The translations under genes were made by a program, and so were the position numbers. 64,000 nt of DNA from Shigella phage Sf16. Where the stretch lies: sequence record MF158043. The stretch is one strand, 5' to 3'. Within the stretch, counting starts at the first letter, position 1; every line of letters starts with the position of its first letter. The notes beneath the pieces were generated by a model, which worked only from the letters and a program-made list of their open reading frames with translations, made no database searches and was not told where the DNA came from. Shown here in pieces: positions 47,841-60,251 of the stretch.

Positions 47841-47868
47841 GGGAACTGTAAAAGGTTCCCTTTTTATT
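47841..47868 (+). terminator. rho-independent terminator
   Basis: GGGAAC-uguaaaag-GUUCCC followed by UUUUUAUUUU. Confidence 0.6.
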
Positions 47869-47879
47869 TTGGAGAAATC

Positions 47880-48395
47880 ATGTACCATTCAAATCTGAAA
47901 CGTGCTGCTGCAATGTCTGTTCTTCGTCTTGATTTTGATGAGCGTCAAGAGTTCATCGAGTCACATCAGTATGACCCTTCAAATTCTAATCACATGGTGC
48001 TTTGGAATCGTGGTAAGTTCCGTGATAGTGCCTTGTTCCAGTACTACCCTCATTACACTATTGACAACCTCTATGAATACTGCGTTGTCAAGAACACTAT
48101 TGCAACCCTTAATAAGCTTTGTAGATATTCTGGAAAGAAAGCTTTCACATTAGGCCACCATAAGCCCGTGACAAAAGGTGGAGAGCACCATTGCTCGAAC
48201 TGGTTTATCCAGACTCAAGAAGATAACCAGAAGCAGGGAGAGAAGCTTCCAGAAGCCCCTAAGATGACTTGGGAGGAACAGAAAGCATATCTCAAAAATA
48301 ATATGCCACCAATGCTTGACAGGGAATATGCAGTTCTGGCAATATCACTCTTGTTGAAGCTTGAGACAGTTTATGAGGCAACTTATCATGGCTAG
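47880..48395 (+). CDS. HNH-like nuclease domain protein (putative)
   Basis: LGHHKPVTKGGEHHCSNWFIQTQEDNQKQG resembles the HNH core. Confidence 0.35.
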   Translation: MYHSNLKRAAAMSVLRLDFDERQEFIESHQYDPSNSNHMVLWNRGKFRDSALFQYYPHYTIDNLYEYCVVKNTIATLNKLCRYSGKKAFTLGHHKPVTKGGEHHCSNWFIQTQEDNQKQGEKLPEAPKMTWEEQKAYLKNNMPPMLDREYAVLAISLLLKLETVYEATYHG

Positions 48396-48666
48396 AGAAC
48401 AATGGGATATCAAAGAGCTTATTAGCGAAGCTGGAAATGGTAGTGAGATGTATATGATACGTGGTCACGTCCCAGATGCACTTGCTATTGAGATGATAGA
48501 CCACTACTCCAACGGATTCTATAAAGAGTTTGGAGAGCCAAATATTGAACGTACTTGGACAAAACCAGTACCAGACGGAACAGGAAACTGTTCAGTTATC
48601 TACCACATTGTAGACCCAAAGAAATGTAAATCAGCTATGGCTGTAACATTTGTAACTTTTGACTGA
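48388..48666 (+). CDS. hypothetical protein
   Basis: internal ATG 48388 of track ORF 48361-48666. Confidence 0.3.
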   Translation: MAREQWDIKELISEAGNGSEMYMIRGHVPDALAIEMIDHYSNGFYKEFGEPNIERTWTKPVPDGTGNCSVIYHIVDPKKCKSAMAVTFVTFD

Positions 48667-48676
48667 GAGATATATT

Positions 48677-49558
48677 ATGAAAACTACTATTCGAGTTCTA
48701 CTTAATTCAAATTCCAAAGGTTCTCATCAAGAGACCTTCAACATTATCCAGTTCCCTTCTGGGGAGATTGGTGGTAACTTCTCAGAAGACTTAGTAGGCT
48801 TTGTTGAACATGCTGCTGGTAAGATTGAAAATGTTATCTTCACTGTACAAGGTTATGACAAAGACACACTCTTTGCATTGGCTATGGCTAAAGAGGCTAT
48901 TGACCGCTTGATTCCTCAGAAAGCAACCATGAAAACTGTTCTTTTTGGATTCTTACCAAATGCTCGCTATGACCGTCACATGTTTAAAGGTGATGCAGCA
49001 GCACTTAAAGTCTTTGCAAATCTTGTAAATGCTATGGAGTTCGATGCAGTATGTGCTCTGGATACTCACAGTAATGTTGCAGAGAATTTGTTTAAGAGCT
49101 TCTACAACCTCCCTCAAAAAGAGGCAGCAGTCCACTTTGCAAGTGACCCACGCATTGATTACTTAGTGGCTCCAGATGCAGGTGCAGCTAAGAAGACTGA
49201 AGAGGCTGCTAAAGAGGTTGAGAAACCTTACATTACAATGGCTAAGGTACGAAACCTGAAAACTGGTGAAATCACTGGTATGCGAATCCTTGATGATGTA
49301 GACTTGACAGGTAAGACTGTCATGATTCTGGATGATATCTGTGACGGTGGTCGAACCTTTATCGAGGCTGCAAAGTATCTTCGTGAAGCTGGAGCAGAAC
49401 GTGTAGAGCTTTATGTGACTCATGGGATTTTCTCTAAAGGTGTTGAAAATCTTCTTGACAATGGTATCGACCATATCTACACTACAAACTCACTCGGGGA
49501 TGAAAAAGACCGTGGTCTTTCCCACTTCTCACAAGTGACCGTAGCAAATATTGAATAA
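48677..49558 (+). CDS. ribose-phosphate pyrophosphokinase (PRS)-like protein; candidate ADP-ribose pyrophosphate synthetase
   Basis: PRS N-domain FPSGEIGG and PRT-type motif VMILDDICDGGRTFIEAAKYLREAGA; adjacent to NAMPT-like gene. Confidence 0.75.
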   Translation: MKTTIRVLLNSNSKGSHQETFNIIQFPSGEIGGNFSEDLVGFVEHAAGKIENVIFTVQGYDKDTLFALAMAKEAIDRLIPQKATMKTVLFGFLPNARYDRHMFKGDAAALKVFANLVNAMEFDAVCALDTHSNVAENLFKSFYNLPQKEAAVHFASDPRIDYLVAPDAGAAKKTEEAAKEVEKPYITMAKVRNLKTGEITGMRILDDVDLTGKTVMILDDICDGGRTFIEAAKYLREAGAERVELYVTHGIFSKGVENLLDNGIDHIYTTNSLGDEKDRGLSHFSQVTVANIE

Positions 49559-49566
49559 CAACTTTA

Positions 49567-49582
49567 GGGGCTGAAAAGCCCC
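49567..49582 (+). promoter_or_regulatory. GNRA-tetraloop hairpin between PRS-like and NAMPT-like genes
   Basis: GGGGCU-gaaa-AGCCCC; identical 16-mer recurs at 54419-54434. Confidence 0.35.
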
Positions 49583-49602
49583 ACTTTGAGAGAGATAAAA
49601 AG

Positions 49603-51420
49603 ATGACTAAATCACTTTATGCAGTACCAGCAGCACTTAATGCAGATGCCTACAAATCTGGCCATTTCTACCAGTATCCAGATGCTACACAGTATCTTAT
49701 GCTGAACTTAACACCTCGTGGAGACAAATGGTTTAACTCTCCGTTAGAGATTGATGGTGTTGTAGCCTTTGGTATTCAGCGTTTTGTAAAAGACTATCTG
49801 GTAGACCACTGGAATGCAACGTTCTTTGAACGTGATAAGAAAGAAGCCATTGACGAAATCTTGGAAATCATGAATGGTGTTCTCGGTGCAGATGCTATTG
49901 GTCGTCAACATTGGGAAGAACTTCATGACTTGGGCTACCTACCTGTTGAAGTCTACTCTGTAGAGGAAGGTACAATTGTCCCTATGCGTGTCCCGATGAT
50001 TGTATTCAAAAACACTGTAGAGGGATTCCATTGGGTAGCTGGTTACCTTGAAGATGCTTTCTCTGCTGAAATCTGGAAAGCTTGTACGATTGCAACAATT
50101 GCACTGCACTACAAACGTATTTGTAAGCAATGGGCTGACAAGACCTGTGACAACGACTTCCATTTACCTTGGCAGTGTCATGACTTTGCAATGCGTGGTA
50201 TGTCTGGCTTCACAGATGATGCGTTTAACGCAGTAGGTCACCTGACAAGTTTTAAAGGTACTGACAGCTTCCCTGCTGTATATACAGCTAAACGTGCATA
50301 TGGTCAGTTTATGAATGTAGGTGAGATTGGTAACTCTGTCCCAGCGACTGAGCACTCTGTGATGTGTGCAAACATCTCATGGAACAGCCTTAACAAAGAG
50401 GTAAGTGATTGGCATCTATCGCATTCTGACAACTTACTTGATGCAATGCGTTGGCGTGGTGAGGTAGAAACTTTCCATCGCCTTCTGACAGAAGTTTACC
50501 CAACTGGTATTGCAAGTGCCGTATCAGATACTTACAACTTCTGGCGTACTGTTACACAGATTCTGCCAGAGCTACGTAATGTAATCCTGAATCGTGATGG
50601 TAAGTTGGTAATCCGTCCAGACTCTGGAGACCCTGTTCACATTGTCACAGGTTACAAAGCTGTTGAATGGGAAACTGCTAAGTCAATGTTCTATAAGCAC
50701 ATGAAAGAGCTTGCACCGAACAATACACATCTGCATGACACAATCTTGAATTGTGAAATGTCTGATATTGGCTTTGGGTTCTCTGCTTGGCTAATCTCTG
50801 AAGGTTATGAGATGGTTGTTGATAAAGAAGATTTTGAATCTGCTGATACAATCAACTTGATTACTGCTCAGAAGACTGGACAGTTTACTGTGAAGCGTAT
50901 GTTAACAGCAGAAATTGATGGAGCTATCCACACGCTGTATAACATCTTTGGTGGCACTGTTAACTCCAAAGGGTACAAAGTACTGGATGAGCACATTGGA
51001 CTAATCTACGGTGATTCAATCACTCTGGAAAGGGCTAATGAGATTCTGTCACGTCTTGCTGATAAAGGTTTTGCAAGTTCTAACGTAGTGTTTGGTGTAG
51101 GCTCATATACCTATCAGTACCTGACTCGTGACACCTTTGCATTTGCTGTTAAAGCAACTCTTGCACAGATGGATGGTCAAGAAATTATGCTGGCTAAAGA
51201 CCCTAAAACTGACAGTGGTCTTAAGAAGTCTGCTTTTGGTGGAGTTGTCCCTATGTGGGATGGTGACAAGCTAGTAGCTGTAGATGGTTTTGGCTTTGCA
51301 GAGTTTGAAGGTGCAATTGACAATTGTCATAGTGCTTTGAAGCTGGTATTTAGTAACTCGCAACCTTATGGTTACGTTAACCTGCGTGATGTTCGAAATA
51401 CTATTGACAAGCAACTTTAA
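49603..51420 (+). CDS. nicotinamide phosphoribosyltransferase (NAMPT/NadV)-like protein
   Basis: 605 aa, N-terminal NADAYKSGHFYQYP signature of NAMPT family. Confidence 0.8.
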   Translation: MTKSLYAVPAALNADAYKSGHFYQYPDATQYLMLNLTPRGDKWFNSPLEIDGVVAFGIQRFVKDYLVDHWNATFFERDKKEAIDEILEIMNGVLGADAIGRQHWEELHDLGYLPVEVYSVEEGTIVPMRVPMIVFKNTVEGFHWVAGYLEDAFSAEIWKACTIATIALHYKRICKQWADKTCDNDFHLPWQCHDFAMRGMSGFTDDAFNAVGHLTSFKGTDSFPAVYTAKRAYGQFMNVGEIGNSVPATEHSVMCANISWNSLNKEVSDWHLSHSDNLLDAMRWRGEVETFHRLLTEVYPTGIASAVSDTYNFWRTVTQILPELRNVILNRDGKLVIRPDSGDPVHIVTGYKAVEWETAKSMFYKHMKELAPNNTHLHDTILNCEMSDIGFGFSAWLISEGYEMVVDKEDFESADTINLITAQKTGQFTVKRMLTAEIDGAIHTLYNIFGGTVNSKGYKVLDEHIGLIYGDSITLERANEILSRLADKGFASSNVVFGVGSYTYQYLTRDTFAFAVKATLAQMDGQEIMLAKDPKTDSGLKKSAFGGVVPMWDGDKLVAVDGFGFAEFEGAIDNCHSALKLVFSNSQPYGYVNLRDVRNTIDKQL

Positions 51421-51435
51421 AACAGTATGATAAGA

Positions 51436-51459
51436 GGCTCCCGTAGGAGCCTTTTTAAT
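51436..51459 (+). terminator. rho-independent terminator
   Basis: GGCUCC-cgua-GGAGCC followed by UUUUU. Confidence 0.6.
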
Positions 51460-51473
51460 TTGTGGAGATTACT

Positions 51474-51809
51474 ATGAAAATTAAACAGATGAATGTTAAT
51501 TTAATCATTGAAGAACGTTGGGAAAACATCAAGCGCCATGAAGATGGTCATAAGTTTATCAATGAACTGTTTCAAGCAGCACAATCAGAGTTAGCTTCTG
51601 AGATTTATACAACGGTTACTTTGAAGGTTTATATCAAAGGTCTTCCACAGAACCATCAAGAAGCTCTTGATTTGTTTCAAGAAGAATTTTACAATCCAAA
51701 CAAAAAGATACTTGAGAATAGTTTTGCAGTATCTTCGAGTATTGTCCATGACAGGAGTTTTGTCCTATTCAGAACTATAGGAGACAAGGTATGCAAGGTT
51801 ATTGGTTAG
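51474..51809 (+). CDS. hypothetical protein
   Basis: ATG 51474 with GGAG RBS (track start 51462 is GTG). Confidence 0.35.
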   Translation: MKIKQMNVNLIIEERWENIKRHEDGHKFINELFQAAQSELASEIYTTVTLKVYIKGLPQNHQEALDLFQEEFYNPNKKILENSFAVSSSIVHDRSFVLFRTIGDKVCKVIG

Positions 51810-51970
51810 AAATTGTTCTTTCACTCGGTTGTATAGTTGCTATTGCAGTGTTACTATGCAAGTACTTCTCAGAGACTGAACCTTGTGATGAATGTGAAGG
51901 TTCTGGGGTAGTTGGTATAGGGCATTGTTGCCCTTACTGTAATGGAACTGGAAAGAAATTTAAAAAGTAA
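51791..51970 (+). CDS. candidate 59-aa membrane-anchored miniprotein with two CxxCxGxG zinc-finger motifs (not in ORF track)
   Basis: hand translation MQGYWLEIVLSLGCIVAIAVLLCKYFSETEPCDECEGSGVVGIGHCCPYCNGTGKKFKK. Confidence 0.35.
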   Translation: MQGYWLEIVLSLGCIVAIAVLLCKYFSETEPCDECEGSGVVGIGHCCPYCNGTGKKFKK

Positions 51971-51971
51971 C

Positions 51972-52001
51972 TTGACAGTGGCATCTATAAAATTATATAG
52001 T
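51972..52001 (+). promoter_or_regulatory. promoter TTGACA-16-TATATA overlapping dyad GTGGCA...TGCCAC, upstream of rIIA
   Basis: hexamers and dyad read directly. Confidence 0.45.
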
Positions 52002-52032
52002 TTGCCACATCGACAACTAAGGAGATATTCTT

Positions 52033-54405
52033 ATGCGCATGGTAAATGACCACGCAACGGTAATTAAAAGCTCAAGTACACTGGAAACCTCTCAGGCTCA
52101 GATTAAGATGACACCTGAAATGTTCAGTCTTCTAAGCTCAGGTGTTTACACATATAAAGAACGTGCTGTAATTCGTGAATTGTCATGTAACGCAGTAGAT
52201 GCTCACATTGATTCTGGTAACGTTGATAAACCTTTCTTGGTTCACTTACCAACTCGTTTCGAGCCATTCTTTGAAGTTCGTGACTTTGGTACAGGGCTGA
52301 CTCATGATAAAGTTATGAAACTTTACATGACCTATGGAGAATCTACAAAGAACGATTCAAACGACTACATTGGTGCTATGGGTATCGGTTCAAAGTCACC
52401 TTTTGCGATTGCTCAGTCATTCACTGTATCAAGCTATGTTGATGGTGTAGTTAACAAATACTCAGTTTACCTTGAGAATGGTATCCCTCAAGTAACTAAG
52501 TTGACTACTAACCCAACTACAGAGCCAAATGGTTTAGCTGTTCGAGTAGCGGTATCCGATAACCGTATCAACAAGTTTCATGAAGAAGCGAGCAATGTAT
52601 ACTCGTACTTTAAAGTTAAGCCAGAGTGTAATGTTGAGTACTATGACATTCTTGAAGCAATGACTTCCATTTCTCGTGAAGATGGTGTCTATGATGCAAT
52701 GAAGTACAAAGAGAACTGGCGCTCAAATAGTAACAGCGTCCATTTCAATGTAATCATGGGTAACATTGCTTATCCGGTTGAAATGGGTGAGTTGCTTGGC
52801 TCAGAGTTTACAAGCATTCTGCCTCAGTTCTTCCGTAGTGCTGTAGACCTTGTTAACATCTACATGCCAATTGGTTCAGTGGCTATTGCTGCATCTCGTG
52901 AAGCATTGCAGATGAATGAAACTACTAAGACCAAGATTGTTGAAGCTGTGAAGAAAATCACTAAGACAATCGTAGAAGATGTGGTAAAAGAGGTTGCTAA
53001 TAAGCCAACTCTGATTGATGCTGCTCAAGCCTATGATACCATGAGGAAGGAGGCTCGTGAAATCTTTATTCACGTCCAAGATTCTCTGGAATGGCAAGGC
53101 CAGAACTTGAAAAAGCTTGAACAAAAGCTGCTAGGTATTCGCCGTGGTCAGTTAACTGAAGCAGATGGTTCTCCGTCATTCTTGAAAGATGATGCAGGTA
53201 ACTTGAGGCTTGACAAAGATGGTAATCCAGTTCCTAATATTGGTAATCTGTATGAACCTGTAGCATACTACAAGTACAGCAGTCTGGAGAACCGTATTCG
53301 AGCAACTTCAGCAACTTATTCACAAGATGCAGCAATGTTTAGTATCTTTGGTGCAATGAGTAAAGATAAGTTGAGCAACTATTTGTTCCTTATCAATGAC
53401 CGTCGAAACAAGAACGGGTCTGAGAAGACAACCGGTAAAAACCAGATTATCCGTGGAGCTTGCCGTGACCGTGAACAGGAAGACTCTAACTTCCGTCGCT
53501 ACAACGGTATTGCTTTCTTGTTCAGCAGTCAGCAGCAATTCGATGAGTTTGTAGATTTGCATATGCTTGACAAGAGTCTGTTAAGTGTGCATACAATGTC
53601 ATCTAAAGAGCACCACTATGAGAAACGTACTATTGTACGTGGTGTTATAAAACTGTATAAAGCATTTATATGTCCAAATACCGACATGATTCGCTATACA
53701 GAGGTTAAAGAGAACTTTGATGAGATTGAAGAACCACAACTGTATATCAAAGCACAGAGTGATGAAGTGATTGGTGGAATCTTCTCATGTTCACCAGAAC
53801 GTGCTGCAACGTTGATGACAGAGTTAACTGGACAGTCAGTTTATGTCTTCCGTAAAGCCAACTGGAAAAAGATTCCTGAAGATTGGACAGAAGTCAATGA
53901 ACAAGTATTGAAAGATTTTATTGATGCCACACATTGGATTGAGTATCATCGTTTCTTGACTCACCAGTATATGACAAATAATCACGATATCACTGATTGT
54001 AATGTTATTTCTCGAAACTTTACGTTTGCTGATAAGCGTAAGTCCAGAGGCCACATTTACAGTAAAGATTTTAAGAAGACTATTTTCTTAGAAGGGAATG
54101 AAGAGGCTATAGAAGCAATGTTTGGACGCTTGGCATACACTGCTGCACCAGTTGCTTACAAAGATATTACCAGCACTCTTGATACCATTCGTAGGAATAT
54201 GAGAGGTTCTTGTAAGCCAAGAAAGGTTCTGGATAATGCTAAGAAGCGTCTTGAAAGCAAGTTCAAAGATTACTTTGAGAAACGCCGTAAAGAAAACTTC
54301 TTGCTTTCTAATCTGGATTGGAATAAAGTATCACCAGTCGAAGTTGGTAAGTTTTTAGGTTTTGACACTAAGAGCATTCCAGAAGATACTGTATGCTGGG
54401 ATTAA
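52033..54405 (+). CDS. rIIA: rIIA-like protein (GHKL ATPase-like N-domain)
   Basis: RELSCNAVDAH, RDFGTGL, SNDYIGAMGIGSKSPF motifs as in T4 rIIA; 790 aa; followed by rIIB-like gene. Confidence 0.7.
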   Translation: MRMVNDHATVIKSSSTLETSQAQIKMTPEMFSLLSSGVYTYKERAVIRELSCNAVDAHIDSGNVDKPFLVHLPTRFEPFFEVRDFGTGLTHDKVMKLYMTYGESTKNDSNDYIGAMGIGSKSPFAIAQSFTVSSYVDGVVNKYSVYLENGIPQVTKLTTNPTTEPNGLAVRVAVSDNRINKFHEEASNVYSYFKVKPECNVEYYDILEAMTSISREDGVYDAMKYKENWRSNSNSVHFNVIMGNIAYPVEMGELLGSEFTSILPQFFRSAVDLVNIYMPIGSVAIAASREALQMNETTKTKIVEAVKKITKTIVEDVVKEVANKPTLIDAAQAYDTMRKEAREIFIHVQDSLEWQGQNLKKLEQKLLGIRRGQLTEADGSPSFLKDDAGNLRLDKDGNPVPNIGNLYEPVAYYKYSSLENRIRATSATYSQDAAMFSIFGAMSKDKLSNYLFLINDRRNKNGSEKTTGKNQIIRGACRDREQEDSNFRRYNGIAFLFSSQQQFDEFVDLHMLDKSLLSVHTMSSKEHHYEKRTIVRGVIKLYKAFICPNTDMIRYTEVKENFDEIEEPQLYIKAQSDEVIGGIFSCSPERAATLMTELTGQSVYVFRKANWKKIPEDWTEVNEQVLKDFIDATHWIEYHRFLTHQYMTNNHDITDCNVISRNFTFADKRKSRGHIYSKDFKKTIFLEGNEEAIEAMFGRLAYTAAPVAYKDITSTLDTIRRNMRGSCKPRKVLDNAKKRLESKFKDYFEKRRKENFLLSNLDWNKVSPVEVGKFLGFDTKSIPEDTVCWD

Positions 54406-54412
54406 AAATAGT

Positions 54413-54441
54413 TTGACAGGGGCTGAAAAGCCCCTTAGAAT
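54413..54441 (+). promoter_or_regulatory. promoter TTGACA-17-TAGAAT with hairpin in spacer
   Basis: spacer is the GGGGCUGAAAAGCCCC hairpin. Confidence 0.45.
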
Positions 54442-54484
54442 ACGAACCACTAAGTAATTTTAAACAACAAAGAGAGATATTGAA

Positions 54485-55606
54485 ATGACTACTAAGACTA
54501 AAGCACAAATCGACGCAGAAATCTATGCACTGGTTAAAGAAGGTAAACTGACCAAAACTGCAATCGCTCTGAAGTATAACACTTCAACCCGTTCGGTAGG
54601 TCGTGCTGTAGAGCGTCATGAAGCAACGCTGCTGTCAGGGAAAACCAAAGCAAAACCTGCAAAGACTCTGAAAGATATTGCAAAGAGTGCTAAGAAAGCT
54701 AAAGCGACCAAGAAGGTATCTAAGCAGAAACCTGTTGCAAAAGCTGTTAAAGAAGCAGTTAAAGCAGAACCTGTAAATGCTCTGCATGAAGCAATGCAGA
54801 ATAACAGCCAGATTGAGTACATGATTACTGGCGATTCTGTTATCATGACTTTCGGTGCAGAGTCTGAGATTGTTGAGTCAACTCATCCTAACTACACTGA
54901 TATTGTAATGGCTGTTGTTTCAGGTGAGTACAAGAAAGCTTTTGAACTGATGAACATTCGCAAGTCTATTGAGAACTTCACTCAGGGTGCTGTAACCATC
55001 AAAGGCGACAACCTGTATTACGGTGCTGTTCAGATGCGCTCAACTCTGGTAGACCGTATTCTGGATATGATGAAGAAAGGTGATAGTGGTTTTGTTCGAC
55101 TGATTGCATTCTTCGAAAAACTGATGGAAAACCCATCAAAAGATTCTGTAGAACAACTTTGGGGCTTCGTATCACACCTTGATGTTGAAATTGATGAAGA
55201 AGGTTATATCATCGGCTGGAAGAAAGTCACAACTCGTGGTGGTAAACTGTTTGACTCTCGCACCTGCAAAGTTCCAAATGATTTGGGTAACATTGTAGAG
55301 ATGCCACGTTGGATGGTTGATAATAACCGTCATGTAACCTGCTCTCAGGGTCTGCACGTTGGTGCTTGGGATTATGTAACTAGCTTCTCTGGTGACACTA
55401 TCCTGAAAGTTCGTGTTCATCCTCGTGATGTTGTTTCAGTACCAACTGACTACAACGACATGAAAATGCGAGCTTCCCGCTATGAAGTTGCAGCGATTGT
55501 AAATAGTCGCCGTGAAGTCATCAAAGAGTGGGATGGTTCAGAAGCACTCCACGTAGTTGTAGGTACTGCTGGTGAACTGATTTCTCAGCGTAAACGTGAA
55601 GTTTAA
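54485..55606 (+). CDS. rIIB: rIIB-like protein
   Basis: C-terminal KVRVHPRDVVSVPTDYNDMKMR and LVDRILDMMKKGD resemble T4 rIIB; Lys/Ala-rich insert near N-terminus. Confidence 0.65.
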   Translation: MTTKTKAQIDAEIYALVKEGKLTKTAIALKYNTSTRSVGRAVERHEATLLSGKTKAKPAKTLKDIAKSAKKAKATKKVSKQKPVAKAVKEAVKAEPVNALHEAMQNNSQIEYMITGDSVIMTFGAESEIVESTHPNYTDIVMAVVSGEYKKAFELMNIRKSIENFTQGAVTIKGDNLYYGAVQMRSTLVDRILDMMKKGDSGFVRLIAFFEKLMENPSKDSVEQLWGFVSHLDVEIDEEGYIIGWKKVTTRGGKLFDSRTCKVPNDLGNIVEMPRWMVDNNRHVTCSQGLHVGAWDYVTSFSGDTILKVRVHPRDVVSVPTDYNDMKMRASRYEVAAIVNSRREVIKEWDGSEALHVVVGTAGELISQRKREV

Positions 55607-55623
55607 TAAGTAAATTCCTAAAG

Positions 55624-55648
55624 GGGCTGCTTCGGCAGCCTTTTTTAT
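55624..55648 (+). terminator. rho-independent terminator (UUCG tetraloop)
   Basis: GGCUGC-uucg-GCAGCC followed by UUUUUU. Confidence 0.6.
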
Positions 55649-55676
55649 TTGAAAAATGTGCAGGTTAGTGTATAAT
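55649..55676 (+). promoter_or_regulatory. promoter TTGAAA-16-TATAAT
   Basis: near-consensus hexamers immediately after terminator. Confidence 0.5.
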
Positions 55677-55707
55677 TGTCTGCATGTTTAACAAAATAGG
55701 AGTGCAA

Positions 55708-56256
55708 ATGAAGAAATTTGTTTTAGGTTTGTGCTTATTCTTTACAGCACATTTAGCTACAGCATCTGACTGTCCAGAGCTTACAATCAGCCAGAAAGTT
55801 AATATGTTAAAAGCATATAACTATGGCGAAGGACAGATGGGAAAAGGTTGGGGAATCCCTTTAGCAGCTATAGCCTTACAAGAGTCACAATTAGGTGTCA
55901 TGTTAGAAAATAAAAAGACTCATGATTATGGTGTTTTCCAGAATCACTTGAAGACTGTTGTAAAGCGTAACAAGGTATCTCCAAAGGTTGCTAAGAAGAA
56001 GCTAGTAAGTGACTTCCATTACTCAGCGAAAGAGGCTCATAAGGAGCTATTATTCTGGACTAAGGTTCATGGTAACCCAGATGGAAAGTACTCTATGAAG
56101 CGTGTCCTAGCTTCTTATAATGCTGGTTACAAATACAAGATTCCAAAGGCTAGACAATACTCTCAAGATGTGTACAATAACATGAAACTGCTGGCTCAAT
56201 GTGAGTTTGCAACAAACATTAAAAAGGTAAAATATGAGCGAATCAAAACAATTTGA
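55708..56256 (+). CDS. secreted lytic transglycosylase (SLT)-like protein, candidate endolysin
   Basis: ATG 55708 with AGGAG RBS; Sec signal MKKFVLGLCLFFTAHLATA; AIALQESQLG resembles SLT catalytic E-S motif. Confidence 0.5.
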   Translation: MKKFVLGLCLFFTAHLATASDCPELTISQKVNMLKAYNYGEGQMGKGWGIPLAAIALQESQLGVMLENKKTHDYGVFQNHLKTVVKRNKVSPKVAKKKLVSDFHYSAKEAHKELLFWTKVHGNPDGKYSMKRVLASYNAGYKYKIPKARQYSQDVYNNMKLLAQCEFATNIKKVKYERIKTI

Positions 56257-56929
56257 TATGGTTCTGTGTCATGCTTATGATATTAAGCCACTTGATTTAG
56301 ATATCAGTTCTGCAAGTTGGTCAGATATTGCTAGAGCTGACTTTGCAGATACAGCAAGAAATGTTATATGTAGTTTTGAAGACTTTCATTCAACAAAGAC
56401 ACAGATTCCTTGTCAGGATTTGCTAACAGGTAAAACTGTATATGTTGGTCGTAACAGCCTTATCTTGGTTGCAAAGAACTTGGAAGAAAAACGTAAAATG
56501 GTCTTAGCAGACATTGACGGTGTTCTTACAAGCTTTAATAAGGAGCTTAATGCAACTCTGCTAACTGATGGTACTTACTCACAGTACACTGATTTGGTAG
56601 AATCTTGCAGAGCTAAACCAACATATGTTTTTAACATTCTGTGTGGTATATCAAGAAATGCTGATATAGGATTCTTAACTGCTCGTGGTGAATCACAAAG
56701 AGTTGTCACACATCTTTTCCTGAATGAGAATGTAGACAGTGATTTCCTACTGTTTATGCGTGGATTTGGTGACAATGAGATTAGTGCAGAAAGTTTGAAA
56801 GTTCGTATGCTTCAGTCTTGCATTCTACCTTACTATGATGTAGTATGCTTTATAGAAGATACAGTGAAGAACGTGGAGAAGGTTGAAAGAATCTTACCAC
56901 ACATCAAAACAATGCTTGTTAAAAACTGA
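56234..56929 (+). CDS. putative HAD-like phosphatase
   Basis: LADIDGVL (DxDG[TV]), FLTAR and downstream Asp motifs; weak. Confidence 0.3.
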   Translation: MSESKQFDMVLCHAYDIKPLDLDISSASWSDIARADFADTARNVICSFEDFHSTKTQIPCQDLLTGKTVYVGRNSLILVAKNLEEKRKMVLADIDGVLTSFNKELNATLLTDGTYSQYTDLVESCRAKPTYVFNILCGISRNADIGFLTARGESQRVVTHLFLNENVDSDFLLFMRGFGDNEISAESLKVRMLQSCILPYYDVVCFIEDTVKNVEKVERILPHIKTMLVKN

Positions 56930-56940
56930 GAGAGTAAACC

Positions 56941-57405
56941 ATGCAAAACATTATTACAGTAGCTATCGATGCTTCCGGTAACAAATCACAGGTAGTTCGT
57001 GAGATTATCAAAAGTAATTTCGATGGTAAAATCTTTCGTGCAGTAAACGTGAAAGCTGATGGTAACATTCGTGAGTATCGTGCAATGTTGAATGTTACAA
57101 AACACGTTAAGGGTGTTGGTTCAACTACTGCTCATAAAGAAAATCTGATGACTATCTATGATATGGGTATGGCTTCAGAGTTAGGTGCAAAAGGGATTGT
57201 ACAATCCGGTGCTCCTTACCGTTCTTTCAATCTGGAAACTGCTCTTATGCTTTCCTTTACAAGTGGTTCTCAAACTACCACTTACCTCTTCACAGATACT
57301 GCAACGGTTTCTGCGATTAAGGACAATACCATTAAGGCTGGCGTAGCTGCTGCTTCAAAAGCCTCAACAATGGCAGCAAATGTCCTTGCGAAAGTTCTTG
57401 GTTAA
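56941..57405 (+). CDS. hypothetical protein
   Basis: 154-aa ORF. Confidence 0.35.
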   Translation: MQNIITVAIDASGNKSQVVREIIKSNFDGKIFRAVNVKADGNIREYRAMLNVTKHVKGVGSTTAHKENLMTIYDMGMASELGAKGIVQSGAPYRSFNLETALMLSFTSGSQTTTYLFTDTATVSAIKDNTIKAGVAAASKASTMAANVLAKVLG

Positions 57406-57416
57406 AGTTATTATAG

Positions 57417-57441
57417 AGGCTCCTTCGGGAGCCTTTTTCAT
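57417..57441 (+). terminator. rho-independent terminator (UUCG tetraloop)
   Basis: AGGCUCC-uucg-GGAGCCU followed by UUUUU. Confidence 0.6.
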
Positions 57442-57457
57442 TTCTAGGAGAAGTTAA

Positions 57458-57805
57458 ATGACGTTTAAAGAATTTTGTCAAGCAGCTTTTGTAATCATTT
57501 TCTTAACAGGTGTTGGTGCTTGGGGAGGCTACACTTACAAGACCAGCCAAGTTAATGAAAAGGAGCTAACTAACCAGAAACTGGTAAGTGTTGCTAAAGA
57601 TGCTTATCAAGAAGGTTTATCAAATCTTAGCTCCAATTACAAAAATGATTTGAAAGATGTGCTTGCTAAAAACAAACACACCAAAGAGGTATTGAACTAT
57701 GAAAAAACTAAGACAGTCTTTATTAATGATTGTGCTACTGAGCCTTATGTCAGGGTGTTCAACGAGCAAAGTGAGCAGTACCTTCAAAAACTCCCAAGTA
57801 AGTGA
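57458..57805 (+). CDS. i-spanin-like protein
   Basis: N-terminal TM helix FVIIFLTGVGAWGGY, then periplasmic domain; overlapped by lipoprotein ORF. Confidence 0.45.
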   Translation: MTFKEFCQAAFVIIFLTGVGAWGGYTYKTSQVNEKELTNQKLVSVAKDAYQEGLSNLSSNYKNDLKDVLAKNKHTKEVLNYEKTKTVFINDCATEPYVRVFNEQSEQYLQKLPSK

Positions 57806-57965
57806 GAGTGACAAGTATACTCAAGAAGAAGCACGTTATGAGGTTAAAGGCACTAAAGGTGAAGACCTTGCAAGTGCTCTTGAGTTTTATCGTGATGGTT
57901 ACTATGAATGTACTATTAAGGCAAACAATTTAATTGATATGATTTTGTTAGGGAATAAGCAGTAA
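57699..57965 (+). CDS. o-spanin-like lipoprotein
   Basis: lipoprotein signal MKKLRQSLLMIVLLSLMSGC; starts inside the previous ORF in another frame. Confidence 0.45.
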   Translation: MKKLRQSLLMIVLLSLMSGCSTSKVSSTFKNSQVSESDKYTQEEARYEVKGTKGEDLASALEFYRDGYYECTIKANNLIDMILLGNKQ

Positions 57966-58234
57966 TGACAGAGAAGAATGAAACATTTTTTGTGGAAGGT
58001 TATCTTCTGTTACCAAGACCAAGTAACACTTACATGAGATTTGACATTATGCCAACGGTTATGGATGATGTAACTTGTCACATCTTTATGCAGGGTGTTT
58101 CTACACAACTTAAACATGTTGGAAGAGATTGCAAAATACGTGTTGACAACCATCCTGAAATCAACGAGAATCACTACACATGGTTCGGGGAAGATTCTAA
58201 AGAAATCTATGCAGTCCTTAAAACGAGGAAATAA
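57965..58234 (+). CDS. hypothetical protein
   Basis: 89-aa ORF. Confidence 0.35.
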   Translation: MTEKNETFFVEGYLLLPRPSNTYMRFDIMPTVMDDVTCHIFMQGVSTQLKHVGRDCKIRVDNHPEINENHYTWFGEDSKEIYAVLKTRK

Positions 58235-58237
58235 AGT

Positions 58238-58690
58238 ATGAAAGTTCAACCATATTATACTGAGTTTAAAGATTCTAACGGTGAAATCTGCACATTACAA
58301 AGAAGCTCATCATTTGAGCCTCGTATTTGGCTTGGTGCAAAAGAAGTCTCAGTAAAGTATCTGAGCAATGGTTGGAAAGAACTGGATATACCCGCATTGA
58401 CAGGTAAGGATTTTGTAGGTAATCAACGTATGAACCTGAACCAAGCTCAGGTAAAAGAGCTACTACCTTACCTTCAATACTTCGCAGAACATGGTGAGTT
58501 ACCTAACTGTGAAATTTCACCAGAAACACATACTGATAAAAAGCAAGAATTGCTTAAACTGATTGAAGAGTATGGTGATTCTCGTTACAATGAAGCTGGA
58601 GAAAGTTGTGTAGGTTCTGTAGAGGGTTTAACACTCTGGGAAGAAGCCTCAATAGCCTTACTCCAACAAATCAAAGAAGTTATCCAGTGA
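58238..58690 (+). CDS. hypothetical protein
   Basis: 150-aa ORF. Confidence 0.35.
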   Translation: MKVQPYYTEFKDSNGEICTLQRSSSFEPRIWLGAKEVSVKYLSNGWKELDIPALTGKDFVGNQRMNLNQAQVKELLPYLQYFAEHGELPNCEISPETHTDKKQELLKLIEEYGDSRYNEAGESCVGSVEGLTLWEEASIALLQQIKEVIQ

Positions 58691-58696
58691 GGTTTA

Positions 58697-59026
58697 GTGA
58701 TGCAACTAGATGGTAAGAATTATGTAGCCGTCTTTTCAGACGGTGAGAAAGAAATTGGTACAGCACAAGTCTGTCACAGTGGTAAAGAGTTTCTCTATGG
58801 GGTTGTTGCATTCATTGGTACTCGTGGTGATATGAAATCTTTTAAAGATTGTGTTGACAAGCTTGAAGAATCCATAGAGAATCATTGGTGTCTGATATGG
58901 CTTAATGCAGAGAATGTTAAAGAACGCTATGCAAAAGTTGGTATCCATATTGAAAGCATCGAACATGTTGACCTGTTTGAACTAACTGAAAAGGTGATGT
59001 ATGAAAGCAATTCTGGTAAGAAGTAA
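58697..59026 (+). CDS. hypothetical protein
   Basis: 109-aa ORF. Confidence 0.35.
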   Translation: MMQLDGKNYVAVFSDGEKEIGTAQVCHSGKEFLYGVVAFIGTRGDMKSFKDCVDKLEESIENHWCLIWLNAENVKERYAKVGIHIESIEHVDLFELTEKVMYESNSGKK

Positions 59027-59225
59027 AGTTACACGTCAAGTGTTAGCAGGGGCTATATTTGTTGGACGGGATGAGGTGATGCCATTTGGTTCACGAATCT
59101 ATAAAGGTTCTGTACTATCACATAGCCACTTTAAGGCTGGTGATTTTTGTCACTATATTAACAGGGGCTATCTAAGAGAGGAACTCGGATATTGGAAGAC
59201 CCGCATTAAGGGAAAGATACGGTGA
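59001..59225 (+). CDS. hypothetical protein
   Basis: 74-aa ORF overlapping previous gene end. Confidence 0.3.
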   Translation: MKAILVRSKVTRQVLAGAIFVGRDEVMPFGSRIYKGSVLSHSHFKAGDFCHYINRGYLREELGYWKTRIKGKIR

Positions 59226-59254
59226 CAGAGTATTCTTACAAGAGGTAATCTCAA

Positions 59255-59455
59255 ATGGCTGATTTCTGCACTAAGTGTTCTGTTGAGATGTTTGGAAAAG
59301 ACACAGGGGACTTAAAAGGCCTCTTTACAAAAGCAGAGTTTGAAGCTGGTTCAGCAATGCCAGTAATCTGTGAAGGTTGTGGTGCTTTATGGGTAGACCA
59401 TGAAGGTAACCGAGTTAAACCATCTGAAGATAACGAACGTTGGGAGCATTACTAA
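59255..59455 (+). CDS. small zinc-ribbon protein
   Basis: CTKC ... CEGCG cysteine pairs. Confidence 0.4.
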   Translation: MADFCTKCSVEMFGKDTGDLKGLFTKAEFEAGSAMPVICEGCGALWVDHEGNRVKPSEDNERWEHY

Positions 59456-59456
59456 T

Positions 59457-60251
59457 ATGGGTATCGTAAAAATTATTAAAGGTGATATCTTTAAAGACTT
59501 TGATGGTAAGAAATTTGATATCATTGGTCACGGTTGTAACTGCATGAACTTGATGGGTGCAGGTATCGCAGCAACAATTGCCAAACGTTACCCAAAAGCT
59601 TATGAAACTGACGCTGAAGTTTATGCTACAGTAGGTGGTGAAAATCATAACCCTAAGCATCTAATGCTTGGTAACATCTCTGTAGCACGTTTTAAGCAGG
59701 GTCGAATTGCTAACCTTTACACTCAGGTTATCACTGGCAAAGATGCACGATACAACGCCTTAGAAGCAGCTTTACAGCGTCTTAACAACTACTGTAAAGT
59801 TAATCAACTTAAGAAAGTTGGGCTTCCGATGATTGGTGCAGGGATTGGTGGTCTTGATAGCATGGCTGTGCTGTCCATTATCAACCAGACTATGAAGGAT
59901 GTTGACGTTTATATGTATGTCTATGAAGATAAGATGTACAGTCAGTTGACTAGTCCTGTTACTGGTTGGGAGAACTTCAGTGAGCCTCAATACTTTGATG
60001 GTGTTGCTGTGGTAGGCAAGGATAAAGTTACCCTCAAGGTGAAGCGTAATGGCAAGGTACACACCAGTTACCCTCCGGTTGAGAAGTACAATCGAAGTAA
60101 CGCTCAAGTTACCCACCCGTTACAAGGCCACCACCACAGAGCGGTAACGTTTGGCGATGATGCAAGTGTATATATCAATGCGACTACAGAAGAGTTTGCA
60201 GAAGATTATATCACACATGAAAACGTAAACTATGTTGAAGCACGTAACTAA
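59457..60251 (+). CDS. macro-domain protein, TARG1/DarG-like ADP-ribosyl hydrolase (putative)
   Basis: IKGDIF...DIIGHGCNCMNLMGAGIAATIAKRYP and LPMIGAGIGGLD...VYMYVY match the TARG1/DarG macro pattern; extra C-terminal ~110 aa. Confidence 0.65.
   Translation: MGIVKIIKGDIFKDFDGKKFDIIGHGCNCMNLMGAGIAATIAKRYPKAYETDAEVYATVGGENHNPKHLMLGNISVARFKQGRIANLYTQVITGKDARYNALEAALQRLNNYCKVNQLKKVGLPMIGAGIGGLDSMAVLSIINQTMKDVDVYMYVYEDKMYSQLTSPVTGWENFSEPQYFDGVAVVGKDKVTLKVKRNGKVHTSYPPVEKYNRSNAQVTHPLQGHHHRAVTFGDDASVYINATTEEFAEDYITHENVNYVEARN

What the first reader, a model, noticed from the sequence alone, without database searches (positions are those of the whole stretch)
47880..60251. Clustering of defence-related functions in a 12-kb stretch
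Within about 12 kb lie, in order, an HNH-like nuclease, the PRS/NAMPT pair, rIIA/rIIB (known in T4 to counter prophage-encoded exclusion), a lysis cluster, and the macro-domain gene. Terminators and promoters partition them into short units. Inference: this resembles a phage counter-defence island, and the unassigned ORFs among them (51474-51809, 56941-57405, 57965-59455) merit testing as inhibitors.
Basis: inference. Interest (0 to 1): 0.5.

Follow-up and report, generated by a model that had tools for sequence, protein, structure and literature searches.

The report
Counter-defence gene block of a Mooglevirus
This 12-kb stretch of a Felix-O1-like (Mooglevirus) phage really does hold several genes that disarm bacterial immunity, but nearly all of them are close relatives of genes already tested in the sister phage Bas63, so it is a new example of known biology and not a new system.

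Summary
The window is a Mooglevirus (Ounavirinae); 47880-60251 is 98% identical to Shigella phages ESh20 and Sf14. About 20 co-directional genes are cut into units by strong sigma-70-like promoters and intrinsic terminators.

The "PRS/NAMPT" pair is NARP1 (Adps+Namat). It is 81% and 76% identical to Bas63 gp79 and gp80, which rebuild NAD+ from ADP-ribose and nicotinamide and defeat Sir2-HerA.

Bas63 knockouts of three further orthologues are also published:
- gp77, the HNH-like gene, counters retron Ec67.
- gp84 and gp85 (rIIA/rIIB) counter QatABCD.

The macro gene is a homologue of two tested phage counter-defence macrodomains: T4 Tk.4/AdfM (anti-DarTG2) and Vibrio phage Gary Adpp (an ADPR-1''-phosphate phosphatase that helps NARP1 against aRES).

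So the counter-defence reading is largely right, but it is already known from a sister genus. The block is a vertically inherited, syntenic and dispensable early-gene region, not a mobile island. It has only a few variable slots, one of which holds the mosaic ORF 58238-58690. Spanins, an SLT-like protein and a HAD phosphatase are interspersed.

ORF 56941-57405 is a WYL_2/Sm-like barrel protein; its Bas63 orthologue is non-essential. No unassigned ORF has defence evidence yet.

The parts
47840..47861 (+). Intrinsic terminator closing the upstream unit. A 10/12 promoter-like site lies at 47810-47838.
47880..48395 (+). 171-aa HNH-like protein, the orthologue (76% identical) of Bas63 gp77, a validated counter of retron Ec67.
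   Evidence: Searches give the weak HNH signature and the invariant FTLGHHxPxxKGGxHxxSNWxIQTxxDN motif. One search gives the identity, another the phenotype. One search finds it in 428 phage records, including phi92-like phages.
48388..48666 (+). 92-aa ORF of unknown function, co-transcribed with NARP1 (phrog_4726). It is 66% identical to Bas63 gp78.
48677..49558 (+). Adps (ADP-ribose pyrophosphate synthetase, PRPS-like), the first enzyme of NARP1.
   Evidence: 81% identical to Bas63 gp79; function
49567..49582 (+). Hairpin GGGGCTGAAAAGCCCC between Adps and Namat. An identical copy lies inside the rIIB promoter spacer at 54419-54434.
49603..51420 (+). Namat (nicotinamide ADP-ribose transferase, NAMPT-like), the second enzyme of NARP1. 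It carries about 110 aa of lineage-specific insertions.
   Evidence: 423 bits to SpbetaL1 Namat (9w5w) against 174 and 144 bits to true Nampts. Searches show the clamp residues conserved. 76% identical to Bas63 gp80.
51432..51455 (+). Intrinsic terminator ending the four-gene unit (HNH-like, orf92, Adps, Namat).
51474..51809 (+). 111-aa acidic ORF of unknown function (phrog_4262). It is present full-length in 257 enterobacterial Ounavirinae records and absent from Kolesnikvirus.
51791..51970 (+). 59-aa membrane-anchored protein with two CxxCxGxG zinc-finger motifs.
52033..54405 (+). rIIA (N-terminal GHKL-type ATPase) with its own promoter at 51972-52001. Orthologue of Bas63 gp84, which counters QatABCD.
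54485..55606 (+). rIIB with its own promoter at 54413-54441. Orthologue of Bas63 gp85, which counters QatABCD.
55684..56256 (+). Secreted SLT-like (lytic-transglycosylase-like) protein with a signal peptide. A terminator and a promoter (55649-55676) lie just upstream.
   Evidence: L013 orthologue PF01464 (weak)
56234..56929 (+). 231-aa protein annotated 'polynucleotide kinase'. It is a HAD-type (PNKP-like) phosphatase with a DIDGV motif, no kinase P-loop, and an unknown 80-aa N-terminal part.
   Evidence: PF25109 HAD_PNKP on orthologues
56941..57405 (+). 154-aa WYL_2/Sm-like SH3 beta-barrel protein with a C-terminal helix. It is among the most conserved proteins of the block (88% to Bas63, 56% to an Erwinia phage). 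The Bas63 orthologue gp88 is non-essential.
57415..57436 (+). Intrinsic terminator after the SLT/HAD/WYL_2 unit.
57458..57965 (+). Overlapping i-spanin (57458-57805, N-terminal transmembrane helix) and o-spanin (57699-57965, lipobox LMSGC).
57965..58234 (+). 89-aa ORF of unknown function (phrog_4391), conserved in Felixounavirus and Mooglevirus.
58238..58690 (+). 150-aa mosaic accessory ORF in a variable slot. The N-terminal module (1-94) and C-terminal module (102-150) occur separately in other phages. It is full-length in only 10 of 105 records and absent from Bas63.
58697..59455 (+). Three small ORFs: 109 aa; 74 aa (variable); and a 66-aa CxxC...CxxC zinc ribbon that is also 64% identical to a Vequintavirus gene.
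59457..60251 (+). Two-domain macro protein. Residues 1-160 form a Poa1p/DarG/TARG1-class macrodomain homologous to T4 Tk.4/AdfM and phage Adpp. Residues 165-264 form a beta-rich domain found only in Ounavirinae-type homologues, with no detectable relatives elsewhere.

Best explanation
The stretch is the conserved, dispensable early/middle 'host-takeover' block of an Ounavirinae phage. It is a run of about 20 co-directional genes transcribed as five or six short units. At least four of those units carry counter-defence functions.

1. Unit 47880-51420 encodes an HNH-like protein, a 92-aa ORF and NARP1.
- The Bas63 orthologue of the HNH-like protein counters retron Ec67.
- In NARP1, Adps pyrophosphorylates the ADP-ribose released by NADase effectors (Sir2, TIR, SEFIR). 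Namat then joins ADPR-PP to nicotinamide and regenerates NAD+. This cancels abortive infection caused by NAD+ depletion.

2. rIIA and rIIB each have their own promoter. They protect against membrane-directed abortive systems: RexAB for T4 and QatABCD for Bas63.

3. The last gene is a macrodomain enzyme that acts on ADP-ribose derivatives. I infer one or both of two activities.
- It may remove DarT-type ADP-ribose from phage DNA, as proposed (from the knockout phenotype and homology to DarG) for T4 AdfM.
- It may dephosphorylate ADPR-1''-phosphate made by aRES so that NARP1 can use it, as Adpp does.

Spanins, an SLT-like periplasmic protein, a HAD phosphatase and a WYL_2 barrel protein are interspersed.

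What is shown: sequence orthology, synteny, the transcription signals and the published phenotypes of the orthologues. What is inferred: that the Mooglevirus copies do the same, and which substrate the macro protein uses.
For: Identity and synteny:
- The region is 98% identical to Mooglevirus genomes.
- It is syntenic gene for gene with Bas63 genes 77-95, with an Erwinia Kolesnikvirus and with distant metagenomic relatives.

NARP1:
- Adps is 81% and Namat 76% identical to Bas63 gp79 and gp80.
- Deleting those genes sensitises Bas63 to Sir2-HerA, and their products are ADPR-PP and NAD+. EOP drops 1e4-1e6-fold.
- Namat scores 423 bits against the SpbetaL1 Namat structure 9w5w, versus 174 and 144 bits against true Nampts.
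- Namat keeps Arg306 and the clamp aromatics: F392/Y396 become Y/Y, and R40 becomes K-W as in Bas63.

Other orthologues:
- gp77 is a counter of retron Ec67, and gp84/85 are counters of QatABCD (1e4-1e5-fold).
- T4 rII counters RexAB.

Macro protein:
- 30% identical over the full length of Gary Adpp, E 2e-17.
- 34% identical to T2 Tk.4. T4 Tk.4 is AdfM.
- The best sequence hit in the PDB is yeast Poa1p.

Dispensability and units:
- Every Bas63 gene of 77-95 with data scores positive in the S17 sheet; g82 and g86 have no data. The paper calls positions ~46-66 kb uniformly non-essential.
Against: - Nothing has been tested in this phage. The orthologues are 60-80% identical, not the same proteins.
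- Lysis genes and a phosphatase with no defence link sit inside the block.
- Co-location can be explained by shared early expression and common descent. Treating gp77, gp79-80 and gp84-85 as three independent systems out of four validated ones, this much clustering in Bas63 arises by chance with p about 0.08.
- The HNH assignment is weak: there is no Pfam hit and the PDB profile search gave only spurious hits. The PhageMaP authors label gp77 GIY-YIG.
- The macro gene lies 8 kb and three terminators away from NARP1.
- T-even phages carry the same macrodomain in 2789 records, and the literature read here names NARP1 only in Ounavirinae, ICP1, SpbetaL1, DyoEdafos and Vibrio phages. I did not test T-even genomes for NARP1.
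- Bas63 gp95 and gp88 stayed non-essential in the two defence strains whose data I could read, TerY-P and AVAST type 4.
Confidence: 0.75

Rival explanations
1. This is an ordinary early-gene region with no selected 'island'. The genes sit together only because all non-essential early or middle genes of Ounavirinae lie in one long rightward transcription block inherited by descent. Counter-defence genes are there because they must be expressed early, not because clustering itself is functional.
For: - The + strand gene array runs from about 30 kb to 64 kb with constant positive GC skew.
- It begins with replication, RNR and NrdDG genes.
- Backbone order is conserved over four or more genera.
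- Lysis and phosphatase genes are interspersed.
- System-level clustering has p about 0.08.
- PhageMaP describes the whole 46-66 kb of Bas63 as one non-essential segment that also includes RNR genes.
Against: - Five of the six validated Bas63 counter genes fall within nine consecutive genes (gene-level p about 2e-4).
- Other anti-defence-type genes have been inserted into the same block in relatives, for example a Dam-family methyltransferase between rIIB and the SLT-like gene.
- Macro-rII adjacency recurs in unrelated ~90-kb phage contigs.
Confidence: 0.2
2. The pair is a true PRPP synthetase plus NAMPT that makes NMN for host NAD+ salvage, a metabolic boost with no specific repair of cleaved NAD+.
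For: Pfam and PHROG names: Pribosyl_synth, NAPRTase and NAMPT_N. PRPS structures are the best PDB hits for the first gene.
Against: - Bas63 still overcame Sir2-HerA in a pncC nadR double mutant host.
- ADPR-PP was detected only when the wild-type phage infected cells carrying the defence system.
- The purified homologue gave no product in the assay intended to test PRPP synthesis (the figure legend gives ribose-5-phosphate plus ATP as the substrates) but did use ADPR.
- The window Namat carries the adenine-clamp residues that true Nampts lack, and it is far closer to Namat than to Nampt.
Confidence: 0.03
3. The macro protein is unrelated to defence. It is a housekeeping ADP-ribose-derivative hydrolase, for example clearing ADPR-1''-phosphate from RNA repair or splicing or O-acetyl-ADP-ribose, or reversing the phage's own ADP-ribosylation of host proteins.
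For: - The family includes Poa1p (a tRNA-splicing by-product phosphatase) and OARD1/TARG1.
- A HAD 'PNKP-like' phosphatase is nearby.
- gp95 showed no phenotype in the Bas63 data seen.
Against: The two phage homologues that have been tested both gave counter-defence phenotypes. The gene is dispensable on lab hosts.
Confidence: 0.15

Closest known systems
NARP1 (Adps + Namat) of Escherichia phage Bas63/JohannRWettstein (Felixounavirus) and Bacillus phage SpbetaL1
   Same: - Adjacent PRPS-like and NAMPT-like genes in the same order.
- 81% and 76% identity to Bas63 gp79 and gp80.
- The same flanking genes.
- Namat clamp and catalytic residues conserved.
   Different: - A different genus (Mooglevirus), and untested.
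- Namat (605 aa) carries about 110 aa of insertions relative to SpbetaL1 Namat. Bas63 Namat is about 593 aa by its gene length, so it is probably extended too, but I did not align it against 9w5w.
- The pair is co-transcribed with two upstream genes, the HNH-like gene and orf92.
NARP1-AP (Adps-Adpp-Namat) of Vibrio phage Gary
   Same: The genome encodes NARP1 plus a Poa1p-like macrodomain 30% identical to Adpp over Adpp's whole length, with the shared motifs N-x-Y-[GT]-Q and G-[AC]-G-[IL]-[GA]-G.
   Different: - The macro gene is not in the operon. It lies 8 kb downstream and 15 genes away, in another transcription unit.
- It carries an extra ~100-aa C-terminal domain.
- The published survey counted only genes within two positions of NARP1, and its table lists no Escherichia, Salmonella or Shigella phages.
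T4 Tk.4 / AdfM (anti-DarT factor, macrodomain)
   Same: A homologous macrodomain (34% identical to T2 Tk.4) with the same HGCNC, NLYTQ and GAGIG motifs. It is a dispensable phage gene.
   Different: AdfM has a single domain. The window protein has not been tested against DarTG.
T4 rIIA/rIIB and Bas63 gp84/gp85
   Same: Adjacent rIIA (GHKL ATPase N-terminus) and rIIB. They are 63% and 76% identical to the Bas63 proteins that counter QatABCD.
   Different: Distant from T4 rII in sequence. The biochemical mechanism is unknown for all members.
Bas63 gp77 (counter of retron Ec67)
   Same: 76% identical, and in the same position at the head of the NARP1 unit.
   Different: The published effect is modest (10-fold). 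The published domain label (GIY-YIG) disagrees with the weak HNH signature found here.

Membership tests
NARP1 | Adjacent, co-oriented Adps (PRPS-like) and Namat (NAMPT-like) genes | tested here: met
   48677-49558 and 49603-51420, separated by a 44-nt spacer, between terminators at 47840 and 51432
NARP1 | Namat rather than Nampt: closer to characterised Namat, with the adenine selectivity-clamp aromatics and the catalytic Arg | tested here: met
   423 bits to 9w5w (SpbetaL1 Namat) against 174 (Xcc Nampt-like) and 144 (mammalian Nampt). F392/Y396 become Y/Y in GSYTYQY, R40 becomes K-W, and R306 is conserved in VIRPDSGD.
NARP1 | Adps rather than PRPP synthetase (orthology to a validated Adps; catalytic Lys185 of ICP1 Adps) | tested here: inconclusive
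   81% identical to Bas63 gp79, which is validated genetically. The Lys185 equivalent was not checked because the ICP1 Adps sequence is not in the PDB copy.
NARP1 | Makes ADPR-PP and NAD+ from ADPR, ATP and nicotinamide; rescues the phage from NADase defence | not testable with these tools
   Needs enzymology or phage genetics
NARP1-AP (with Adpp) | Poa1p-like macrodomain protein encoded within or next to the NARP1 operon | tested here: not met
   A homologous macro gene is present but lies 8 kb downstream, beyond three terminators
NARP1-AP (with Adpp) | ADPR-1''-phosphate phosphatase activity | not testable with these tools
   Homology only
AdfM (T4 Tk.4) anti-DarTG macrodomain | Homology to Tk.4 across the macrodomain | tested here: met
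   tblastn hits to tk.4 of T-even phages; 34% identity to T2 Tk.4 with shared motifs
AdfM (T4 Tk.4) anti-DarTG macrodomain | Protects the phage from DarTG2 | not testable with these tools
   Phenotype known only for T4
DarG/TARG1-type ADP-ribosyl glycohydrolase | Catalytic Lys (TARG1 K84) and Asp (D125); residue roles taken from my own knowledge of the TARG1 literature | tested here: not met
rIIA/rIIB | Adjacent rIIA (GHKL-type N-terminal ATPase) and rIIB homologues | tested here: met
   phrog_612 E 3e-184; HATPase_c_3 over residues 45-163; phrog_609 E 7e-85; PF26926 on orthologues
HNH nuclease | beta-beta-alpha-metal motif (H-N-H/N) recognised by family models | tested here: inconclusive
   Only weak hits: PHROG HNH E 2e-5 and 5e-4, IscB E 5e-4. 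The invariant GHHxP..GG..H..SNW..DN motif is present. There is no Pfam hit, and the PDB profile search was spurious.
Two-component spanin | i-spanin with an N-terminal transmembrane helix plus an overlapping o-spanin lipoprotein with a lipobox | tested here: met
   phrog_1152 E 6e-38; the o-spanin begins MKKLRQSLLMIVLLSLMSGC and starts inside the i-spanin gene
WYL_2 (PF10902, DUF2693) | Sm-like SH3 beta-barrel recognised by the Pfam model | tested here: inconclusive
   - Direct hit only at E 0.2.
- The profile search retrieves about 120 small proteins. Of 10 scanned, 3 pass the PF10902 cut-off and 3 more hit it below the cut-off.
- The L013 orthologue is flagged PF10902 (weak).
- BFVD matches include 'WYL domain containing' and DUF2693 proteins.
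Anti-defence island (variable cluster of inhibitors) | Two or more proven anti-defence genes side by side | tested here: met
   By orthology to Bas63 gp77, 79, 80, 84 and 85
Anti-defence island (variable cluster of inhibitors) | Gene content varies between close relatives; mobility | tested here: not met
   The backbone is invariant. Only three slots vary: after Namat, after rIIB, and between orf89 and orf109.

The most novel reading that the evidence does not exclude
Ounavirinae may run a dispersed version of the extended NAD+ repair pathway. The conserved two-domain macro protein, 8 kb downstream of NARP1, would feed ADPR into Adps and Namat by dephosphorylating aRES-made ADPR-1''-phosphate, and/or would strip DarT ADP-ribose from DNA. 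Its lineage-specific C-terminal beta domain would add a new specificity. Operon-based surveys would then under-count such phages. In addition, one or more of the conserved but dispensable ORFs could be a new counter-defence factor: the WYL_2 barrel 56941-57405, orf111, or the mosaic slot gene 58238-58690.
Probability: 0.3. Interest if true: 0.5.

Novelty: new member of a known kind. Interest (0 to 1): 0.3.

Why it matters
Mooglevirus and Felixounavirus phages are used against Shigella, E. coli, Salmonella and Citrobacter. Knowing that they carry NARP1, rII, a retron counter and an AdfM/Adpp-type macrodomain helps predict which host defences they can overcome.

The analysis also corrects the usual annotations (PRS, NAMPT, polynucleotide kinase, phosphatase).

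It gives a short list for experiments: the macro protein against aRES and DarTG, the variable-slot gene, and the WYL_2 protein.

It does not reveal a new kind of system.

Tried and rejected
- Finding Bas63 took guessed accessions. MZ501111 was Bas51, MZ501084 was Bas62 and MZ501085 was too short; MZ501086 was correct.
- PADLOC and NCBIfam scans of ten proteins gave only the DarG-macro and IscB-HNH hints.
- The profile of the HNH-like family against PDB sequences returned only spurious Protein A repeats.
- The C-terminal domain of the macro protein, the N-terminal part of the HAD protein, orf92, orf111 and orf150 gave nothing in Pfam even at E 5. The macro C-terminal domain also gave nothing in PDB sequences.
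- The afdb50 fold library was unavailable.
- I considered comparing all ORFs with the 268 EVADES anti-defence proteins, but the sequences would have cost most of the remaining supplement look-ups.
- I rejected 'DarG-type glycohydrolase' as a confident call because the catalytic Lys and Asp are absent. I then saw that T2 Tk.4 lacks them too, so anti-DarT activity is not excluded.
- I could read PhageMaP defence-panel scores for gp88 and gp95 in only two strains.

Full report
**What the window is.** The region 47880-60251 matches 282 phage records. It is 96.6-98.5% identical over 95% or more of its length to the closest Mooglevirus genomes (Shigella phages ESh20 and Sf13-Sf19, and some Citrobacter phages). 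It is about 80% identical or less to several hundred more distant records, mostly Escherichia and Salmonella phages of the Felixounavirus type. Against the annotated Sf14 genome, the window runs in this order:
- portal, tail and tail-fibre genes
- a putative holin
- nucleotide-metabolism and replication genes
- aerobic and anaerobic ribonucleotide reductases
- the stretch in question
- a long array of small early ORFs

From about 30 kb to the end, everything is on the + strand with positive GC skew. ARAGORN found no tRNA genes in the window.

**Checking the observation.** Profile searches gave the following.

| Coordinates | Size | Result |
|---|---|---|
| 47880-48395 | 171 aa | Weak HNH signature (PHROG HNH E 2e-5 and 5e-4; IscB HNH region E 5e-4). 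No Pfam hit |
| 48388-48666 | 92 aa | Unknown |
| 48677-49558 | 293 aa | PRPS-like |
| 49603-51420 | 605 aa | NAMPT-like |
| 51474-51809 | 111 aa | Unknown, acidic |
| 51791-51970 | 59 aa | Membrane anchor plus two CxxCxGxG motifs |
| 52033-54405 | 790 aa | rIIA, with a GHKL-type ATPase at the N-terminus |
| 54485-55606 | 373 aa | rIIB |
| 55684-56256 | 190 aa | Secreted SLT-like protein |
| 56234-56929 | 231 aa | 'Polynucleotide kinase'. In fact only a HAD/PNKP-type phosphatase: DIDGV motif, no P-loop; PF25109 on orthologues |
| 56941-57405 | 154 aa | Unknown (see below) |
| 57458-57965 | 115 and 88 aa | Overlapping i- and o-spanins, with a transmembrane helix and the lipobox LMSGC |
| 57965-59455 | 89, 150, 109, 74, 66 aa | Five small ORFs |
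| 59457-60251 | 264 aa | Macro domain (PF01661, E 8e-8) |

The transcription signals are also real.
- Intrinsic terminators lie at 47840, 51432, about 55625 (seen by eye, not listed by the scan), 57415 and about 60277 (also by eye).
- Promoters matching 11 of 12 consensus positions lie before rIIA, rIIB and the SLT-like gene.
- Both classes exceed the shuffled expectation: promoter-like sites 66 against 42.6 +/- 6.2, terminator-like sites 18 against 9.7 +/- 3.6.

- The 'lysis cluster' is only the spanins plus an SLT-like protein.
- The last 'unassigned ORF' is five ORFs.
- PRS and NAMPT are the wrong enzyme names.

**The PRS/NAMPT pair is NARP1.** Osterman et al. studied exactly this operon in phage Bas63. 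Their findings:
- Deleting genes 79-80 sensitised the phage to Sir2-HerA and deepened NAD+ depletion.
- The effect did not depend on the host genes pncC and nadR.
- ADPR-pyrophosphate appeared only when the wild-type phage infected cells carrying the defence system.
- A purified homologue pyrophosphorylated ADP-ribose. It gave no product in the assay meant to test PRPP synthesis.

Bas63 (MZ501086) is a Felixounavirus in the same subfamily. The window proteins are 81% (Adps) and 76% (Namat) identical to gp79 and gp80.

The window Namat scores 423 bits against the SpbetaL1 Namat crystal structure 9w5w. It scores only 174 and 144 bits against true Nampts. Reading that alignment against the published structure-function map:
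- The catalytic Arg306 is kept.
- The two clamp aromatics F392 and Y396 are Tyr and Tyr (GSYTYQY).
- The loop residue R40 is replaced by Lys-Trp, the arrangement described for Bas63.

Adps could be tested only by orthology, because the ICP1 Adps structure is not in the PDB copy.

**The neighbouring genes have published phenotypes too.** A genome-wide knockout screen of Bas63 (PhageMaP) validated six counter-defence genes clonally.

| Bas63 gene(s) | Defence countered | Effect on plating |
|---|---|---|
| g79, g80 | Sir2-HerA | 1e4-1e6-fold drop |
| g79, g80 | Retron Ec86 and hhe | Weaker |
| g77 | Retron Ec67 | About 10-fold drop |
| g84, g85 (rIIA/rIIB) | QatABCD | 1e4-1e5-fold drop |
| g130 | ppl | Severely reduced plaque size |

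Gene 77 is the orthologue of the window's HNH-like gene (76% identical). The authors label it GIY-YIG, which my searches do not support. The HNH call is itself weak.

The same paper reports Bas63 positions ~46-66 kb as uniformly non-essential. In its tables, every gene of 77-95 with data scores positive on the S17 sheet, and g88 and g95 also score positive on the MG1655 sheet. Genes 82 and 86 have no data. HIDEN-SEQ independently re-confirms that T4 rIIA and rIIB are conditionally essential on RexAB hosts.

**The macro gene.** Residues 1-160 form a macrodomain.
- The closest solved sequence is yeast Poa1p, an ADPR-1''-phosphate phosphatase.

Two phage relatives have been tested:
- Vibrio phage Gary Adpp converts the aRES product ADPR-1''-phosphate into ADPR, so that NARP1 can work.
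- T4 Tk.4, named AdfM, protects T4 from DarTG2.

The window protein is 30% identical to Adpp across Adpp's full length (E 2e-17) and 34% identical to T2 Tk.4. All three share the HxCNC, N-x-Y-[TG]-Q and G-A/C-G-I/L-G/A-G motifs. All three lack the TARG1 catalytic residues: Lys84 aligns with Gln and Asp125 with Gly. Sequence therefore cannot decide between the Adpp and AdfM activities, and both are counter-defence roles.

Two points are new relative to the literature:
- In Ounavirinae the macro gene is conserved together with NARP1 but lies 8 kb away in another transcription unit. It falls outside the +/-2-gene rule used to define NARP1-AP. That paper's table lists no Escherichia, Salmonella or Shigella phages.
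- The protein carries a beta-rich C-terminal domain of about 100 aa, found only in Ounavirinae-type homologues. Nothing similar turned up elsewhere.

**Is it an island?** The backbone order is:

HNH-like, orf92, Adps, Namat, [slot], orf111, orf59, rIIA, rIIB, [slot], SLT-like, HAD, WYL_2, spanins, orf89, [slot], orf109 ... orf66, macro.

This order holds across:
- Sf14 and HP1 (Mooglevirus)
- ESh21
- Bas63 and HY02 (Felixounavirus)
- an Erwinia Kolesnikvirus, where the small ORFs orf92, orf111, orf89, orf109, orf74 and orf66 gave no hit
- two metagenomic relatives whose proteins are only 35-50% identical

. This is inheritance by descent, not repeated assembly.

Variation is confined to three slots:
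- After Namat there are extra ORFs in HP1, Bas63 and the Erwinia phage.
- After rIIB, the distant relatives carry a Dam-family methyltransferase, itself a plausible anti-restriction gene, and the Erwinia phage carries other ORFs.
- After orf89 sits the variable-slot gene described under the unassigned ORFs.

At gene level, five of six validated Bas63 counters within nine consecutive genes is very unlikely by chance (about 2e-4 after scanning). Counted as three independent systems out of four, the probability is about 0.08.

One independent hint of linkage exists. In two unrelated ~90-kb phage contigs, a single-domain macro homologue lies beside rIIA and rIIB, with no NARP1 within 10 kb.

My reading is that this is a conserved counter-defence-rich early block with a few accessory slots. 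It is not a mobile island.

**The unassigned ORFs.**
- **orf154 (56941-57405)** is one of the two most conserved proteins in the block across genera: 88% identical to Bas63 and 56% to the Erwinia phage, where rIIB is 57%, Adps 44% and rIIA 34%.
  - It is confined to this lineage at the 90%-cluster level.
  - A profile search of 1.8 billion representative proteins links its core (residues about 15-77) to about 120 small proteins. I scanned ten of them: three pass the Pfam WYL_2/DUF2693 cut-off and three more hit it below the cut-off.
  - The model (pLDDT 88) is a small beta-barrel plus a hairpin and a long C-terminal helix. It has weak Sm-like, SspB and WYL matches, and BFVD matches include 'WYL domain containing' proteins.
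  - Its Bas63 orthologue gp88 is non-essential and showed no effect in the two defence strains I could read.
  - I infer a ligand- or nucleic-acid-binding role. Its strong conservation argues against a fast-evolving protein inhibitor.
- **orf111** occurs full-length in 257 enterobacterial Ounavirinae records, at about 59% identity between genera, and has no detectable relatives elsewhere.
- **orf150** is the best candidate for a strain-specific accessory factor.
  - It is full-length in only 10 of 105 matching records.
  - Its N- and C-terminal modules occur separately, and the N-terminal module also occurs in Pseudomonas phages.
  - The same slot is empty in Bas63 and holds other alleles in HY02 and ESh21.
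- **orf66** is a zinc ribbon shared at 64% identity with a Vequintavirus.

None of these ORFs matches a PADLOC or NCBIfam model in a meaningful way.

**Verdict.** The counter-defence interpretation is largely right, but it is already established by experiments on the syntenic orthologues of a sister genus. The stretch is therefore a new member of known kinds: NARP1, rII, a gp77-type retron counter, and an AdfM/Adpp-type macrodomain. The 'island' label and the inhibitor status of the unassigned ORFs are not established. The open questions that remain are which substrate the two-domain macro protein uses, and what the conserved but dispensable ORFs do.

Noticed in passing
window 60252-60755: Just after the macro gene there is a terminator and then four direct repeats ending in TTTCAAAnnTGTGCAGGT (at 60327, 60402, 60443 and 60488). 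The same motif forms the -35 region of the promoter at 55649. Sf14 annotates a 78-aa minus-strand ORF (window 60297-60533) across this array, which may not be a real gene.
   Followed up: partly
window 49567-49582 and 54419-54434: An identical 16-nt hairpin, GGGGCTGAAAAGCCCC, occurs twice (none expected by chance). One copy lies between Adps and Namat. The other lies inside the 17-nt spacer of the rIIB promoter TTGACA...TAGAAT.
   Followed up: partly
window 49603-51420 (Namat residues about 258-286 and 354-439): The Namat is about 110 aa longer than the crystallised SpbetaL1 Namat, with two inserted segments that do not align to 9w5w. Bas63 Namat is about 593 aa by gene length, so it is probably extended too. 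The function of the insertions is unknown.
   Followed up: no
window 51404-51455: An 11/12 promoter-like site ends one base before the Namat terminator hairpin. A transcript from it would start inside the terminator, so this is either a chance match or a 5' stem-loop for the orf111 unit.
   Followed up: no
L005 (Bas62, Justusliebigvirus) 16868-19083: A macrodomain gene, a phosphoribosyltransferase and a HAD-like gene lie side by side close to NrdDG. This trio resembles the macro, HAD and PRT-like content of the window, but tblastn with the window Adps found no match.
   Followed up: no
L015 11252-14820 (metagenomic 87-kb phage contig): A reverse-transcriptase gene (RVT_1) sits between a macro homologue and an rIIA-like gene.
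   Followed up: no
L012 4974-5870 and L013 5310-6206: Distant Ounavirinae-like relatives carry a Dam-family (MethyltransfD12) methyltransferase inserted between rIIB and the SLT-like gene, a slot that is empty in the window.
   Followed up: partly
phage collection hits: Records named Campylobacter phage A132 and Staphylococcus phage SA1 contain Felixounavirus-type genes at 60-75% protein identity. This probably reflects contaminated or mislabelled records.
   Followed up: no
PhageMaP supplementary table for Bas63: Several manual labels look doubtful against the profile results here: g77 as 'GIY-YIG', g78 as 'ribose-phosphate pyrophosphokinase', and g92 as 'tail assembly protein'. Sf14 and HP1 also carry odd labels, for example 'NAD synthetase' on a GIY-YIG gene and 'DNA polymerase' on a 216-bp ORF.
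   Followed up: no
window 59255-59455: The 66-aa CxxC...CxxC zinc-ribbon ORF is 64% identical to a gene of the unrelated Vequintavirus Bas51 (bas51_0042), which suggests horizontal exchange of this small gene.
   Followed up: no
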